Shown piece after piece: positions 1-11,494 of a stretch of 64,000 nt of DNA; positions within the stretch are counted from its first letter, which is position 1, and every line of letters begins with the position of its first letter. The notes under the pieces were generated by a model. The model saw only the letters and a program-made list of their open reading frames with translations, did not search any database and was not told the DNA's origin. Source of the DNA: the human T2T-CHM13v2.0 reference genome, Homo sapiens. Both the position numbers and the translations under genes were made by a program. The DNA is taken from assembly GCF_009914755.1 (NCBI RefSeq), contig NC_060926.1; one strand, written 5' to 3'.

Positions 1-2230
1 CCAAGAGAATGTGTAAGAACTATCAAGTCTTAGGACACATGGCCAGGACCAGAAGGTGCCCAGTGAAGTGCTGGGGTGGGGCCCTGCCTCACAACCCTTG
101 GGCCAAATAAGAAGGAAAAGTAGAACCTGGGACTGAGGAAGCCCCAGCAACTCCAGACTCCATAGCCGTTTACCAAGACTCACAGAAAGAACAAAGGCAA
201 AGGCAAGGCAAGAACTGCAGAGGAAGAACCTACCACAGGAGTTTCCTAGGAGACTTCAAGTTGAAGCATCAGCAAAACTGAAAGGCTAATGCCTGTCCAC
301 ACATCCAAAAGTAGATCTGTCCTGGATCTGTGTTCAACAAGTCAGCCAGCTGTCAAGAAACCTGAGATGTGATTCTTCTACCTGGCAGAGCCTCCCATCA
401 AGACATAAACTGGGCTCCCTCTTACCTTATGGATAACTGACGTGTGGAGGTGGATCTATGGATTAGACTCATGCTGCATTCCAGCACTTTGCCTAGGACC
501 CAACAATCATTGCCAAGATGAAAGTCAACAGGCCTGAAGTTTGCTTTCATGATGTTCTCCAGCCTGTAACCAAGACACTAGTCCTGGCCACTTCTTCAAA
601 CCTGATGCAAGGTTGTGCTGATATAAATGCAAACCCAGCTCTATGCCTACCAACCATCTATGTGGCTAGGACTGCAAATTGAGTATTCAGGCCCCAGGCA
701 AGAGGTCTTCCCAGGTTTCCAAGTAGAATTTCTAGAATTTCCAAAGATAATGACTTTGCCCCTTTCAGTGCCCATCTTCCAGAGATAATCAGAGGGGGCC
801 TCTGGAAGCCATTTAGACTCTCCAGCCTCCTCCCTAGTGAAAATGGACTTGGATACAAAGAGGCAACCTACTGACCTCAAAGGCACCAGCCCAGATACTG
901 AGTATAGGGGCCCTCTATGACACACCTCATCTGAGCCACATCAAAGCCCAAACTGTTCCTCAATCTCCACCATCCAGACAGCCCAAAACGGCCCTTCAGA
1001 ATTGTCTTGAGATGGGACAGGAGACAGTAGAGCTGCAGGTTCAGAATGGCTGCCTCATCCCTCCCTCCTGAAAAGTCTATACCTGCTGATCAGAGCCTCA
1101 CACCTCAGGGGGCTCAGCCCTCCCAGTAAGTGTTCCCTAAGAGGACCTTTGTTGCGGGAAGTCAGGGACCCTAAACGGAAGGACCAGCTGAAGCCATGGC
1201 AGAAGAACATGAATTGTGAAGATTTCATGGACATTTATTAGTTCCCCAAATTAATAATTTTATAATTTCTTATGCCTCTCTTTACTGCAATCTCTAAACA
1301 TAAATTGTGAAGATTTCATGGACACTTATCACTTCCCCAATCAATACCCTTGTGATTTCCTATGCCTGTCTTTACTTTTATCTCAATCCTGTCAGCTGAG
1401 GAGGATGTATGTCACCTCAGGACCCTGTAATAATTGCATTAACTGCACAAATTGTACAGCATGTGTGTTTGAGCAATATGAAATCTGGGCACCTTGAAAA
1501 AAGAACAGGATAACAGCAATTGTTCAGGGAATAAGAGAGATAACCTGAAACTCTGACTGCCGGTGAGCCGGGCAGAACAGAGCCATATTTCTCTTCTTTC
1601 AAAAGCAAATGGGAGAAATATCGCTGAATTCTTTTTCTCAGCAAGGAACATCCCTGGGAAAGAGAATACATGCCTGGGGGTATGGGTCTATAAACGGCCT
1701 GTAGGGGTGAAATAGACCCCAGTCTCCTATAGCACTCCCAGGCTTATTAGGAAAAGGAAAATTCCTGCCTAATAAATTTTTGGTCAGACCGGTTGCTCTC
1801 AAAACCCTGTCTCCTGATAAGATGTTATCAATGACAATGGTACCCGAAACTTCATTAGCAATTTTAATTTCGCCCCAGTCCTGTGGTCCTGTGATCTCGC
1901 CCTGCCTCCGCTTGCCTTGTGATATTCTATTACCTTGTAAAGTACTTGATGTCTGTGACCCACACCTATTTGCACACTCCCTCCCCTTTTAAAAATCCCT
2001 AATAAAAACTTGCTGGTTTTGTGGCTTGGGGGGCATCACAGAACCTACCGACATGTGATGTCTCCCCCGGATGCCCAGCTTTAAAATTTCTCTCTTTTGT
2101 ACTCTGTCCCTTTATTTCTCAAGCTGGCGGACGCTTAGGGAAAATAGAAAAGAACCTACGTGACTATCGGGGCGGGTTCCCAGATAGACCTTCTGGTCTT
2201 TTCCTCCTCTGAGGGGAGGAATGATACCCT
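1..2230 (+). pseudogene. FAM90A-family processed pseudogene (runs off the left edge; interrupted by MER11 LTR 1150-2186)
   Basis: Manual translation gives collinear FAM90A-like motifs across frameshifts and stops: CKNYQVLGHMARTRRCPVKCWGGAL (12-86; FAM90A zinc knuckle CKNCxAFGHTARSTRCPMKCW), ELQRKNLPQEFPRR (~212-253), MPVHTSKSRSVLD (289-327; cf. MPVHTTSKRP), PGKRSSQ...LCPFQ (~693-768), RPFRIVLRWDRRQ*SCRF...PPEK (989-1075; cf. QPLRVLFRRLENGRWSS...SPEK), and PVSVP*EDL|LVFSSSE across the LTR (cf. PPNVLYEDLQVSSSSE). No introns are visible. Confidence 0.85.
1150..2186 (+). mobile_element. MER11 solo LTR (HERV-K11/HML-8 family)
   Basis: Starts TGTTGCGGGAAGTCAGGGACC and ends GGTTCCCAGATA, matching MER11 termini. 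It has a TATA-like TATAAA near 1689 and AATAAA at 2001, and is flanked by a perfect 6-bp TSD GACCTT (1144-1149, 2187-2192). Confidence 0.93.
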
Positions 2231-3949
2231 CTGTGCCACAAAATATATAACCTCTACTCTCACATGACTTGATTGATTGATGAACTGATGCCCTGAGGAG
2301 GAAAGAGATGCAGAGGAGAGCCTGTGTCGTGTCTTGTGAATTCCTGTTTCCCTAGCTGTGATGCCTGTGCAAATCGAGGAACCCAAATAATACTGGGTGG
2401 TGGACACACAGACACTGCCTAATAAAATTCAGTAAATTTACCTTGAATTTAAGGGGAACTTATCATATGTCCTATAAAAATTTAAGTTGGTGAATTTTAT
2501 AAGAAAACTGAGTTAAAATGTATAAGGGCATTAAAATATAATTTTAATAGGAAGCTATGAAAATTATCTGCACTTGCTGTGTAAATGACTGAATTTTGGG
2601 TAACTATGTAAGATTATTGATGGGCTTGAAAAGATACCCGCTACTTAATTTTATCAGACATTTACTTTCAAATATTTGCTGTTAACCAGTTAACCAGTTA
2701 ACCAATACCCTCTCATGTTATTAAAATTTTTTATTTTGAGGGAGCACTTCTATGAAAACAATAGTAAGATTGTTGCTAATTTTGGTTATTAAAATAATAA
2801 AATTGTTTGGTTAGTTTATGTTATTGTTAACCAAATGCTCCTATAGATAGCATATTGTACAGTTGTTTTGATCCGTTCTTTCACCCTAGGTCAAATTTCC
2901 TTAATTTTATTCATCAAATTGTATTTACTGTAGATAAAAGAAACACTGTAGTTACCATGTGCTCTGCGGATCTGTACTTTGTTAGAAATACAAATTCTCA
3001 GTCAAAACTCACACCTATTTTACAAAAATCTGGATCTTAAATAATACTTTGAGGTAATCTCTATGCATATTAATGATTGTTAAGGGGGGTAATTCAATTC
3101 TTAAAAGAGGGGAAGTTTACGTATACTGATTTGTCAAAAAGGTACAATTAAGATTGTACCTTTCAATGTGTATGCATTTTATCTAAAAAATAATCAAAAA
3201 CCTAATGAAGTGGGGGGTGGGAAATGGTTTGAAATATAGATTAAACAAAAACAGCATATGACTAGTAGATGTTAAAGCTGGGTGACAGGTCTATTATACT
3301 TTTTGGTATTTTGTATATGTTTTTAATGTTCTGTAATAAAACACTTCTATGAAATGACAGAGTTGATCTATACTTAGTTCTTAAGATCTTGGTTTCCTTT
3401 GGAAGGAGAAGGAGAATGTGATTATCAGGGGCATGAGCAAGTGTGATTCTATTTCTTGGTTACACAAGTGTATTTATTTTGTAATAATTCATCAAGCTTT
3501 CCATAAATGTTTTGTGCATATGTTTCTGTATGCATGTTATACATCAATAAAAAGTTAAATATTAAAAAATTTACAAATTATATATATTAATACATGGTTA
3601 CTTATATTCATTCTATAAACATTTACTGCAAGTCTCCAATGCCTTGGGCATAGCTTAAAGGCTAAGGACACAAAGGCCCTTGGCCCTCACAGGATTCACA
3701 GTATAAAGGGTAATGAGAAAACCCAGAACTACAATACCTTCTCAAATGCCCAAATTCGTGACTATCATCAATTAAGTTGTGGGGGGTGAGGCTCCCTCAC
3801 TGTTGAGAGACTGCCTCCCTCATACCAATGTCATGGGAAACATGATTCGAATTCTGGTTAAATACTAAACAGCATAACTGTACTTGCAGTTACACATTCA
3901 ATGAATATTGGTTAAACAGGGAAAAATAATCACCCAAAACTCCTGCTCT

Positions 3950-4930
3950 GAAAAATATTACTATAAGCAAAGTCAAAAGACAAGTGATAAATTAAGAAAA
4001 ATATCTGTAATATGTAACAGACACAAAGGACTAATATAGGAAAAGTGCCTAGAAAGAGTATTAAGAAAAAGATCAATAAAAAATGAACAAGACATATGGA
4101 CAGTTCACAGAAAAAGAAATACAAATGGCTCTTCAACATATGAAAAATGGGGACTGGCACACTATGGCTCACAAGCCAAGTCTGCCCAGCCATATGTTTT
4201 TGTAAATAAAATTTTATGGAACACAATTTTGCCCATTCATTTGTGCATTGTCTATGTCTGCTCTCGTGCTACAATGCAAAGTTGAGTTGTTACAGCAGAG
4301 ACTGGCTCACAAACCTGAAAATATTTACTGTCTCACCCTTTAAAGAAAAAGCTTCCTGACCTCTGATCTAGAGAAGCAGAAATTAAATAGCACTTAGATA
4401 TCGTTCTTCATCTATCAGATTGTCAAAGTTCAAAAGTTTGAAAACACTGCTGCAGGGGCTTCTCATATATCTTTTAGGAGTAAATTGGTAAAATTATTTA
4501 AAAGATAAGTTATTAATATTTTTCTCAGTTGATAATTTACACATACTTTGTTCCCACAGTTCTTCTTTGGGGCACTTACTCTACAACAGCACTTGAACAT
4601 ACATGTCATAGTTATTTATTGCAGCTCTGTTTGTTGCTCAGTTTGGAAAGATTTAAACCATTTTCACTGGACATAAGTAAAGAACCGGTTAAACTATGGA
4701 TGTCTATCTATATAATGGAATAATACATAGTTGTCTAAAAGAATGAGAAAGGTCTCCACATGCTGATCTAAAATATCTCCATAATATATTATTCAGTGAA
4801 AAACGTGAAGGGCAAAACAGTATGCATGGTGTGCTACCTGTGCATGAAATGGAGGAGGAGAAAACTATACCCTTGTATTTTCTTAATATCTGCATAAAGA
4901 ACTCTGGAAGGATGCATAAGAGCCTGATGA
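3950..4930 (+). mobile_element. Old L1M (L1ME-like) 3' fragment
   Basis: Degenerate L1 ORF2-end/3'UTR motifs (gaacagttcacagaaaaagaaatacaaatggc; ataatggaataata); interrupted by MER58. Confidence 0.6.
4149..4365 (+). mobile_element. MER58A-like hAT DNA transposon
   Basis: tttttgtaaataaaattttatggaacaca ... aaatatttactgtctcaccctttaaagaaaaag...ctgacctctg matches the MER58 consensus pattern. Confidence 0.75.
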
Positions 4931-11341: not shown

Positions 11342-11426
11342 CTGAGACAAAGGAATAGGCCGCTAGGATGTTGCTGAGCAAAGCCATCTCCACGTGCTCT
11401 GGGCTGTGGCTGAGGGGCAGCCTCAT
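11342..11426 (-). CDS. EVA1A: EVA1A (eva-1 homolog A / FAM176A / TMEM166) first coding segment, codons 1-28 plus 1 nt
   Basis: Translates to MRLPLSHSPEHVEMALLSNILAAYSFVS, the recognised EVA1A N-terminus, and ends at a phase-1 donor TCAG|GTAGGT (GT at 11341-11340). The rest of the CDS (ENPERAALY...) is not in the window. Confidence 0.96.
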
Positions 11427-11494
11427 GGGACATCCAGAGGGGACCTCCTGGAGGTGCTTGGCTGAATCAACGTGGCCACTCTCCTTCTTCTCTT
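11342..11494 (-). other. EVA1A: EVA1A exon containing the start codon (153 nt: 68 nt 5'UTR + 85 nt CDS)
   Basis: Acceptor cacttt atgttcccaaacAG| (AG at 11496-11495) and donor |GTAGGT. Confidence 0.9.

What the first reader, a model, noticed from the sequence alone, without database searches (positions are those of the whole stretch)
1..2230. Hidden ancient FAM90A-family retrocopy inside an EVA1A intron, invisible to the ORF track
Seen: six collinear peptide blocks on the + strand match the FAM90A zinc-knuckle family from the CCHC knuckle (CKNYQVLGHMARTRRCPVKCW) to the acidic/serine C-terminus (EDL|LVFSSSE), broken by many stops and frameshifts. Known: human FAM90A genes are intron-containing and mainly cluster at 8p23 and 12p13. 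Inferred: the absence of introns where FAM90A1 has them points to retrotransposition, and the high divergence (e.g. QEFPRRLQ instead of HIFSGKPP) suggests a parent older than the primate 8p23 expansion. I do not recall an annotated FAM90A pseudogene at this locus, but cannot verify that.
Basis: partly seen in the sequence, partly recalled or inferred. Interest (0 to 1): 0.8.

Follow-up and report, generated by a model that had tools for sequence, protein, structure and literature searches.

The report
Ancient FAM90A-like retrocopy in EVA1A intron
A dead, intron-less copy of a FAM90A-like zinc-knuckle gene was pasted into an intron of EVA1A by retrotransposition tens of millions of years ago and was later split by a retroviral LTR; it is an ordinary molecular fossil, except that its parent gene no longer survives whole in the human genome.

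Summary
Window 3-107 (+) is a Pfam zf-CCHC_6 knuckle. A frameshift-tolerant alignment runs collinearly through the whole last exon of FAM90A1 (z 13) and of the 19q13 FAM90A copy (z 41), up to EDL|LVFSSSE across the 1150-2192 insert.

The retrocopy reading also holds, and the element is larger than reported: about window -254 to 3564, or 2.78 kb without the insert.
- Four exon-exon junctions are fused exactly where related genomic copies and FAM90A1 carry AG/GT-bounded introns.
- Homology to genomic copies stops 13 nt after an AATAAA, where this copy and four other processed copies switch to A-runs.
- A 16/18 target-site duplication at a TT|AAAA site flanks it.
- The insert is a dispersed ~1.04 kb LTR-like repeat with a 6-bp duplication.

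The source was not FAM90A1 or the 8p23 genes. It was a divergent, now wholly broken subfamily, and the closest surviving remnant is at chr19:20.18 Mb. The reading frame is destroyed and RefSeq lists no feature here.

Verdict: an ordinary processed pseudogene of low interest. The side observations on its extinct, FRG2-linked parent lineage are more interesting.

The parts
1..5 (+). Last 5 nt of the exon A-derived segment. The rest of the element's 5' part lies left of the window (window 0 = chr2:75516000):
- exon A-derived, -164..5 (170 nt);
- exon A0-derived, -254..-165 (90 nt);
- 5' copy of the target-site duplication, TTAAAAATGTTACAAATT, at -272..-255 (chr2:75515728-75515745).
   Evidence: - **Exon A.** 26 other matches in the genome. 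In chr7 loci L012 and L014 it is bounded by ...TTTAG| and |GTGAGA or |GTAAGA. Here it is fused on both sides.
- **Exon A0.** It aligns to the Y copy and to L012/L014. In L014 it is followed by a GT donor.
- **5' duplication.** 16/18 identical to window 3562-3579, with 1 of 300 shuffles as good. No homology to any paralogue lies upstream of about -254/-251.
6..202 (+). Exon B-derived segment with the broken CCHC zinc knuckle (CKNY...H...C). TAA at 108-110.
   Evidence: PF15288 at E 6.5e-9. It starts exactly after the CACAG| acceptor of genomic copies L023, L024, L031 and of FAM90A1, the 8p23 copy and the 19q copy. It ends where those copies carry a donor.
203..284 (+). Exon C-derived segment (82 nt; ...QELQRKNLPQEFPRRLQ...).
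   Evidence: It aligns to the isolated exon C of L027 and L023, which is flanked there by AG and GTAA, and to FAM90A1 and 8p23 exon 3.
285..1149 (+). Exon D-derived coding part, left of the LTR (MPVHTSKSRSVLD ... EDL).
   Evidence: It starts exactly after the AG acceptor of L023, L024, L025 and L030. It aligns collinearly to the FAM90A last exons, with 10 frameshifts and 7 stops against the 19q copy.
1144..1149 (+). Left copy of the 6-bp duplication GACCTT made by the LTR insertion.
   Evidence: Read from the sequence. Paralogues carry one GACCTT.
1150..2186 (+). Inserted ~1.04 kb LTR-like dispersed repeat, probably a solo ERV LTR. It begins TGTTG and has AATAAA at 2001-2006.
   Evidence: Of 40 other scored matches, 38 cover the whole insert at 88-91% identity, out of 2187 first-look candidates. 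It is absent from paralogues L025 and L034 at the homologous site.
2187..2192 (+). Right copy of the 6-bp duplication GACCTT.
2193..3564 (+). Rest of the exon D-derived segment. It holds the C-terminal LVFSSSE (2193-2213) and then about 1.35 kb of 3' UTR.
   Evidence: Paralogues align continuously to about 3564. Homology to the FAM90A 19q copy ends near 2214.
3546..3551 (+). AATAAA polyadenylation signal.
   Evidence: It lies 13 nt before the point where the processed copies leave the genomic copies.
3562..3579 (+). 3' copy of the target-site duplication, TTAAAAAATTTACAAATT. Its A-run (3564-3569) is all that is left of a poly(A) tail.

Best explanation
This is a processed (LINE-1-mediated) pseudogene.

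**How it arose.**
- A spliced, polyadenylated mRNA of about 2.8 kb was reverse-transcribed and inserted at a TT|AAAA site. The site now lies in the last intron of EVA1A, and the insert is antisense to EVA1A.
- The mRNA came from a FAM90A-like gene. It joined five exons: two 5' exons (A0, A) shared with a multi-copy family on chr7 and elsewhere, the zinc-knuckle exon (B), an 82-nt exon (C), and a 2.2 kb terminal exon (D).
- The source gene belonged to a divergent FAM90A subfamily. Every human copy examined is now broken. The nearest surviving genomic remnant is chr19:20.18 Mb.

**What happened since.**
- The insert has decayed neutrally, leaving at least 12 frameshifts and 9 stops, and the knuckle has lost a cysteine.
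- It was later split by an ERV-type solo LTR that made a 6-bp duplication.
- It most likely does nothing today.

**Shown:** family membership, fused junctions, the poly(A)-site end, the duplications, and decay.
**Inferred:** LINE-1 as the machinery, the order and dates of events, and the lack of function.
For: - **Family.** PF15288 hit; collinear frameshift-tolerant alignments with z 13-41; protein tree.
- **Fused junctions.** A0|A at -165|-164, A|B at 5|6, B|C at 202|203 and C|D at 284|285 coincide with AG/GT-bounded introns in L012/L014, L023, L024, L025, L027, L030, L031, and in FAM90A1, the 8p23 copy and the 19q copy.
- **3' end.** Five genomic-type copies (L025, L030, L031, L010, L039) share sequence beyond ...AAATATTA. 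This copy and four others (chr15, Y, chr9, chr21:23.0 Mb) each turn into a different A-rich tail there, 13 nt after AATAAA.
- **Target-site duplication.** 16/18 identical, with 1 of 300 shuffles as good, starting at TT|AAAA.
- **Flanks.** They are not shared with any paralogue.
- **An independent sibling.** The Y copy joins exon A directly to exon C and has its own tail, so it is a separate retrocopy of an alternative transcript.
- **Source lineage.** Sister to chr19:20.18 Mb at 99/96 support in the protein tree. In the DNA tree it sits in one 100/100 clade with that copy, the Y copy, chr19:6.59 Mb and the acrocentric copies. K2P distance to chr19:20.18 Mb is 0.161 over 1993 columns.
- **LTR came later.** Paralogues show an empty site with one GACCTT. 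LTR copies are 88-91% alike, whereas the retrocopy's own branch is 0.085 substitutions per site.
- **Decay.** The longest open frame is 76 aa.
- **No known RNA.** No Rfam family matches in window 1-4000.
Against: - There is no long poly(A) tail. Only six A's remain, and they merge with the A-run of the duplication.
- The duplication is imperfect (16/18) and AT-rich.
- No locus carrying all five exons in genomic form was found. Exons A0/A were never seen next to FAM90A-like exons B-D in genomic DNA, so the parent is inferred, not observed.
- The canonical first coding exon of FAM90A (found in the chr12, chr8 and 19q copies) was not found in this copy or in four subfamily loci. The source transcript may therefore already have been non-coding or chimeric.
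- The order inside the closest DNA clade is unresolved.
- The trees use long pseudogene branches, and the AU group was named after the tree was seen.
- No other primate genome could be examined, so the dates rest on recalled substitution rates.
- Own-genome searches score only the best candidates, so copy counts are lower bounds.
Confidence: 0.9

Rival explanations
1. The retrocopy was made elsewhere and reached chr2 by a DNA-level (segmental) duplication or transposition of an already processed copy.
For: The family has spread widely by segmental duplication, for example the ten near-identical acrocentric copies and the chr18/chr21 and chr16 pairs. The poly(A) remnant here is very short.
Against: The element is bounded by its own 16/18 duplication exactly at the transcript's ends. 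No paralogue shares sequence beyond those ends. The other processed copies have different tails and different 5' ends.
Confidence: 0.05
2. It is an unprocessed duplicate of a FAM90A-like gene whose introns were later lost by deletions.
For: Intron-bearing duplicates of the same subfamily exist (L023, L024, L025, L030, L031).
Against: This would need four deletions that each remove an intron to the base. It would also need loss of the shared downstream genomic flank exactly at the poly(A) site.
Confidence: 0.01
3. The fossil, or the LTR inside it, has been co-opted, for example as a regulatory element or an antisense transcript acting on EVA1A. It would then not be functionless.
For: None from sequence. 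It lies antisense in an intron, and LTRs of this size often carry promoter or enhancer activity (general knowledge).
Against: The RefSeq functional-element rows supplied with the finding list nothing in 1-3564. There is no Rfam match. Decay is at about the same rate as its pseudogene siblings, with terminal branches of 0.075-0.085.
Confidence: 0.04
4. The knuckle is a chance match, or derives from TAF1/TAF1L, which carry the same Pfam domain, rather than from FAM90A.
For: PF15288 also matches chr9:32647812 (inside an 1838-aa open frame) and chrX:69835630. The names TAF1L and TAF1 for these are recalled.
Against: The homology continues collinearly for about 300 further codons of the FAM90A last exon. 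The knuckle exon borders are those of FAM90A genes.
Confidence: 0.005

Closest known systems
FAM90A1 (12p13) and the 8p23.1 FAM90A cluster
   Same: They share the zf-CCHC_6 knuckle exon with the same 5' and 3' borders. They also share a middle exon and a long last exon ending ...YEDLxVxSSSE, in the same order.
   Different: - Only about 35-39% protein identity, and no DNA-level hit in the whole-genome search.
- Exon C ends earlier and exon D starts 9 nt later than in FAM90A1.
- The 5' exons differ, and the 1.35 kb 3' UTR is unrelated.
- This copy is intron-less and broken.
The chr19:56.36/56.38 Mb FAM90A copies (FAM90A27P/28P by recall; FAM90A27P appears among chr19 genes in a table passage of PMC6625096)
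   Same: The nearest named-type relative: 41% identity over 283 codons, with patches of 72-78% DNA identity. It groups with the subfamily at 98/94 support.
   Different: It is intron-bearing and keeps the canonical first coding exon. It lacks the subfamily's 3' UTR.
LINE-1-mediated processed pseudogenes (general class)
   Same: Fused exons, an end at the poly(A) site, a target-site duplication of about 16 bp at TT|AAAA, a chromosome different from that of the nearest genomic relative, and neutral decay.
   Different: The parent no longer exists intact. It seems to have been a chimeric transcript with foreign 5' exons. The poly(A) tail is almost gone.
Solo LTRs of class II (HERV-K-like) endogenous retroviruses; by recall it resembles the MER11/LTR13 group
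   Same: About 1 kb long, starts TG, has an internal AATAAA, makes a 6-bp duplication, and has very many dispersed full-length copies at about 90% identity.
   Different: The subfamily name was not tested because no repeat library was available. The 3' end reads ...CCCAGATA rather than ending in CA. No link to internal proviral sequence was examined.

Membership tests
FAM90A gene family | zf-CCHC_6 (PF15288) zinc knuckle above the curated cut-off | tested here: met
   36 bits against a cut-off of 22, E 6.5e-9, and 37.9 bits in the genome scan. The second Cys is replaced by Tyr and a TAA follows at 108-110.
FAM90A gene family | Collinear homology through the long last exon to the acidic/serine C-terminus | tested here: met
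   z 13 against FAM90A1, z 9.4 against the 8p23 copy and z 41 against the 19q copy, each judged against 40 shuffles. Alignment printed.
FAM90A gene family | Exon borders of the knuckle exon shared with FAM90A genes | tested here: met
   Searches show the same acceptor and donor positions as FAM90A1, the 8p23 copy and the 19q copy.
FAM90A gene family | Canonical first coding exon (M...DEEDPR) | tested here: not met
   tblastn with seven N-termini finds it in the chr12, chr8 and 19q loci (E 1e-25 to 8e-6). It finds nothing in this element or in L023, L024, L031 or L037.
FAM90A gene family | Intact open reading frame (a functional member) | tested here: not met
   10 frameshifts and 7 stops in the last exon, and 2 plus 2 in the knuckle exon. 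The longest open frame is 76 aa.
Processed pseudogene / retrocopy | Introns absent exactly at the parent family's intron positions | tested here: met
   Four junctions are fused.
Processed pseudogene / retrocopy | Ends at a polyadenylation site with an A-tail downstream of AATAAA | tested here: met
   It leaves the genomic copies 13 nt after AATAAA. Only six A's remain.
Processed pseudogene / retrocopy | Flanking target-site duplication | tested here: met
   16/18 identical, and 1 of 300 shuffles as good. The 5' copy abuts the first base that is homologous to paralogues.
Processed pseudogene / retrocopy | Identifiable intron-bearing parent gene elsewhere | tested here: inconclusive
   Only partial genomic relatives were found. 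The closest, chr19:20.18 Mb, has exon D and its upstream intron but no exons A0-C within 15 kb.
Processed pseudogene / retrocopy | Empty site in an outgroup species | not testable with these tools
   No primate genomes were available.
Solo ERV LTR | Dispersed full-length copies, short target duplication, and absence from the pre-insertion site | tested here: met
   38 of 40 other scored matches are full length at 88-91% identity. GACCTT is duplicated here and single in L025 and L034.
Solo ERV LTR | Copies that flank internal proviral genes; named subfamily | not tested
   No repeat library was on hand. The MER11/LTR13-like name is recalled only.
Unprocessed segmental duplicate | Retains introns and the genomic flank beyond the poly(A) site | tested here: not met

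The most novel reading that the evidence does not exclude
The chr2 element is a well-preserved cDNA snapshot of an extinct, chimeric FAM90-like gene.

- This lineage split from the FAM90A1/8p23 line before strepsirrhines and haplorhines diverged.
- It acquired foreign 5' exons.
- It was expressed in the germ line of early anthropoids, leaving at least five or six independent retrocopies.
- In genomic DNA it sat head-to-head with FRG2 in the duplicon that later spread to 4q35, 10q26, 3p12, and the pericentromeres of chr16, chr18, chr20, chr21 and chr22.

On this reading, the 5' end of the FSHD-region FRG2 transcript lies on the antisense strand of this gene's last exon.
Probability: 0.4. Interest if true: 0.45.

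Novelty: new member of a known kind. Interest (0 to 1): 0.25.

Why it matters
For EVA1A, it probably does not matter. The element is a decayed antisense insert in an intron with no sign of function.

Its value is as an evolutionary record.
- It is one of the few copies that keep all five exons of a FAM90A-like transcript whose gene no longer exists intact in humans.
- It therefore fixes that gene's exon structure, its poly(A) site and its approximate time of expression.
- It shows that the FAM90A family had an old second lineage that was prolific in both retrocopies and segmental duplicates. That lineage left 33 other matched places.
- Standard protein-based pseudogene pipelines may miss or mislabel this lineage, because identity to FAM90A1 is only about 35-39%.
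- The side observation that these relics are physically coupled to FRG2 paralogues could interest people who work on the 4q35 FSHD region.

Tried and rejected
- **Pfam on ORF pieces.** The other 12 ORF pieces gave nothing above a cut-off.
- **Plain tblastn.** FAM90A1 and 8p23 last-exon ORFs against the element gave no hit at E<=0.01. A frameshift-tolerant alignment was needed.
- **FAM90A1 exon-3 ORF.** Its best local alignment fell at the wrong place (z 3.3). That block rests on DNA alignment only.
- **Whole parent gene.** No exons A0, A, B or C lie within 15 kb upstream of the chr19:20.18 Mb exon D (L025/L026). No FAM90A-like exon lies next to any exon-A locus.
- **Canonical first coding exon.** Not found in this copy or in the subfamily loci.
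- **Homology upstream of the 5' duplication.** None.
- **Rfam.** No match in window 1-4000.
- **Literature.** The paper I recall as the original FAM90A family description (doi 10.1093/hmg/ddm209) is not held and was not seen.
  - FAM90A + pseudogene gave 46 papers, none on this locus by title.
  - FAM90A + retrocop* gave 1 paper, about LRRC37.
  - FAM90A + FRG2 gave 2 papers, both expression studies by title.
  - These searches cover only the held library. GENCODE, pseudogene and retrocopy catalogues could not be consulted.
- **FRG2 paper (PMC12242771, passages only).** It gives no coordinates. Its supplements were not opened.
- **TAF1-derived or chance knuckle.** Considered and rejected.
Full report
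**1. What is in the sequence.**

The window is human T2T chr2:75516001-75580000. On the + strand, window 3-107 reads KRMCKNYQVLGHMARTRRCPVKCWGGALPHNPWAK.
- This piece matches Pfam zf-CCHC_6 (PF15288) at E 6.5e-9 and 36 bits, against a cut-off of 22. None of the other 12 ORF pieces I submitted matched any family above its cut-off.
- A scan of the whole assembly with PF15288 gave 64 matches: 56 on chr8 (the 8p23 arrays), one on chr12, two at chr19:56.36/56.38 Mb, two on chr16, one each on chr9 and chrX, and this one at 37.9 bits with an internal TAA.
- The chr9 and chrX places would be TAF1L and TAF1. Those two names are recalled, not tested.
- The chr12 last-exon open frame is named 'protein FAM90A1 [Homo sapiens]' (99% identity) by the protein database. 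That database also holds FAM90A-named proteins from lemurs, a galago, a donkey and a bat.

**2. Collinearity with FAM90A.**

Plain tblastn found the knuckle exon but not the FAM90A1 last exon. I therefore wrote a local protein-to-DNA alignment that allows frameshifts, and judged each score against 40 shuffles of the protein. The insert was removed before aligning.

| Reference exon | Score | Null (mean +/- sd) | z | Identical | Frameshifts / stops |
|---|---|---|---|---|---|
| FAM90A1 knuckle exon | 124 | 39 +/- 5 | 17 | 31/62 | 2 / 2 |
| FAM90A1 last exon | 133 | 51 +/- 6 | 13 | 97/274 | 9 / 6 |
| 8p23 last exon | 130 | 54.5 +/- 8 | 9.4 | 92/276 | 9 / 6 |
| chr19:56.36 Mb last exon | 213 | 52 +/- 4 | 41 | 116/283 | 10 / 7 |

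The last alignment runs from MPVHTSKSRSVLD to EDLLVFSSSE across the 1149|2193 join. The FAM90A1 exon-3 frame did not align at its expected place at protein level (z 3.3, elsewhere). That block is supported by the DNA alignment only.

**3. The element is a spliced copy.**

A DNA search of the assembly with window 1-1149 gave 42 other matched stretches, which I merged into 33 places. None was at 8p23 or 12p13. Several of these places carry the same segments separated by kilobases. Alignments of the borders show four fused junctions.
- **A|B at window 5|6.** Copies at chr19:21.12 Mb, chr16:32.17 Mb and chr18:14.29 Mb share an intron ending ...CACAG| with FAM90A1, the 8p23 copy and the 19q copy. 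This copy, like chr19:6.59 Mb, instead carries an unrelated 170-nt segment (exon A) joined at exactly that base.
- **B|C at 202|203.** FAM90A1, the 8p23 copy and the 19q copy have |GTGAGC or |GTAAGG after ...AAG. The three subfamily genomic copies have |AT... there. This copy continues directly into exon C.
- **C|D at 284|285.** Exon C stands alone at chr19:19.92 Mb and chr19:21.12 Mb, between an AG and |GTAA. Exon D is preceded by a shared intron ending AG| in four copies, including chr19:20.18 Mb.
- **A0|A at -165|-164.** Exon A itself is bounded by ...TTTAG| and |GTGAGA or |GTAAGA in chr7 loci. The segment before it (A0) is followed by |GT in chr7:57.6 Mb.

The Y-chromosome copy joins exon A directly to exon C, as an exon-skipped transcript would.

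**4. The ends.**

Paralogues align to this copy as far as window ~3564.
- In the alignment of 3' ends, five copies share a further genomic flank after ...AAATATTA. These are chr19:20.18 Mb, chr4:0.30 Mb, chr18, an acrocentric copy and 4q35.
- This copy and those on chr15, Y, chr9 and chr21:23.0 Mb each change at that point into a different A-rich run. The point lies 13 nt after AATAAA (3546-3551).
- Left of the window, homology to any paralogue begins at about -254/-251.
- The 18 bases just before that, TTAAAAATGTTACAAATT (-272..-255), recur as TTAAAAAATTTACAAATT at 3562-3579. This is 16/18 identical, and 1 of 300 shuffles of the two flank zones scored as well. The site begins TT|AAAA, the usual LINE-1 endonuclease target (general knowledge).
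- Neither flank is shared with another family member.

The element is thus a retrocopy of about 2776 nt, made up of exons A0 (90), A (170), B (197), C (82) and D (2237). It was inserted in place and is antisense to EVA1A, in the intron between the exon at 11342-11494 and the last exon left of the window (gene table supplied with the finding).

**5. The insert at 1150-2186.**

- It matches a very abundant dispersed repeat, with 2187 first-look candidates. Of the 40 other matches scored, 38 span the whole 1037 nt at 88-91% identity.
- It starts TGTTG, carries AATAAA at 2001-2006 and is flanked by GACCTT on both sides. Paralogues at chr19:20.18 Mb and chr15 have one GACCTT and no insert.
- This fits a solo LTR of a class II endogenous retrovirus. 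The resemblance to the MER11/LTR13 group is recalled, not tested.

**6. Which gene was copied, and when.**

- All ten family copies I aligned to the 19q last exon are broken or partial, and the longest open frame is 145 aa.
- The element scores higher against lemur, mouse-lemur and donkey FAM90A proteins (263, 265, 257) than against human FAM90A1 (196).
- In a protein tree rooted on donkey and bat, the eight subfamily rows form a 100/100 clade. That clade joins the 19q copy (98/94) and lies outside strepsirrhine plus anthropoid FAM90A (91/93). This copy is sister to chr19:20.18 Mb at 99/96.
- Forcing the subfamily and the 19q copy together with anthropoid FAM90A costs 18.1 log-likelihood units, AU p 0.009. 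Two caveats apply: I named the group after seeing the tree, and long pseudogene branches can attract each other.
- In a DNA tree of exon D, this copy sits in a 100/100 clade with chr19:20.18 Mb, the Y copy, chr19:6.59 Mb and the acrocentric copies. The internal order is unresolved. Its terminal branch is 0.085, and K2P to chr19:20.18 Mb is 0.161 over 1993 columns.
- With recalled neutral rates of about 1-2.2e-9 per site per year, this suggests roughly 40-85 Myr. The LTR copies differ by about 9-12% pairwise, or roughly 5% each, and so are younger. These dates are inference.
- The canonical first coding exon of FAM90A is detectable at chr12, chr8 and 19q, but not in this copy or in four subfamily loci. 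No genomic locus joins exons A0/A to B-D. The parent was probably a rearranged, perhaps chimeric, gene that has since been lost.

**7. Comparison and verdict.**

The element works like, and meets the tested criteria of, a LINE-1-mediated processed pseudogene. It belongs to the FAM90A family by domain, collinearity and exon borders, but it is not a copy of any extant human FAM90A gene.
- RefSeq (table supplied) has no row for it. I could not consult GENCODE or retrocopy catalogues.
- The held literature gave nothing on FAM90A retrocopies.
- The paper I recall as the original family description is not held and was not seen.
- Background on the family's 8p23 location, and on FAM90A genes near defensins in horse, comes from passages of PMC2874809.

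I rate it a new member of a known kind, of low interest.

**8. Side observation.**

Pfam FRG2 (PF15315) matches in the assembly (32 matches) lie 1.5-2.8 kb from the DNA-level FAM90A-like relics, on the opposite strand and head-to-head, at 13 places. These include 4q35, 10q26, 3p12, 3q-ter, the chr20 and chr22 pericentromeres, five chr16 places, chr18 and chr21.

At 4q35 (locus L040) the layout is as follows.
- The relic occupies L040:3668-4846 on the + strand.
- The FRG2 start codon is near L040:2910 on the - strand.
- A - strand AATAAA lies at L040:1151-1156.
- PMC12242771 (passages read) gives 2918 bp from transcription start to poly(A) signal. That would put the FRG2A start near L040:4070, inside the relic and antisense to it.

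The overlap is inference only. The paper does not mention FAM90A, and only two held papers contain both names.

Noticed in passing
L040 (chr4:193392501-193400500), and 12 further places listed in note 2: FRG2 (Pfam PF15315) matches lie head-to-head with DNA-level FAM90A-like relics, 1.5-2.8 kb away, at 13 places including 4q35, 10q26 and 3p12. By the 2918-bp TSS-to-poly(A) figure of PMC12242771, the FRG2A start would fall inside the relic on the antisense strand. That last point is inference.
   Followed up: partly
window -254..5; L012 (chr7:56.77 Mb), L014 (chr7:57.65 Mb), L013 (chr3:88.6 Mb): The two 5' exons of the retrocopy belong to another multi-copy family, with 26 other matches. The chr7 copies have canonical AG/GT borders. 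These exons are never found beside FAM90A-like exons in genomic DNA, so the source transcript looks chimeric. In L013 the fused A0-A pair is followed by sequence that, from recall, looks like a LINE-1 5' end.
   Followed up: partly
L035 (chrY:13846001-13853000): A second, independent retrocopy of the same lineage joins exon A directly to exon C, skipping the zinc-knuckle exon. It has its own A-tail.
   Followed up: partly
L023 (chr19:21.12 Mb), L024 (chr16:32.17 Mb), L031 (chr18:14.29 Mb): The donor after the zinc-knuckle exon reads AT instead of GT in all three intron-bearing subfamily copies. This is possibly a shared inactivating change.
   Followed up: no
chr13, chr14, chr15, chr21 and chr22 short arms (e.g. 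chr13:5485608 + and chr13:5619793 -): Ten near-identical FAM90A-like relics, equivalent to window 448-3564 with the genomic 3' flank, sit on the acrocentric short arms. They form inverted pairs about 130 kb apart.
   Followed up: no
chr9:32647812-32647937 and chrX:69835630-69835752: The FAM90A-type knuckle model PF15288 also matches inside an 1838-aa open frame on chr9 and in an exon on chrX. These would be TAF1L and TAF1 by recall, which hints at a shared origin of the knuckle.
   Followed up: no
L001:355-610 (window about -1146..-890): An Alu-like element with an A-tail lies about 0.6 kb upstream of the retrocopy. It was recognised by eye only.
   Followed up: no
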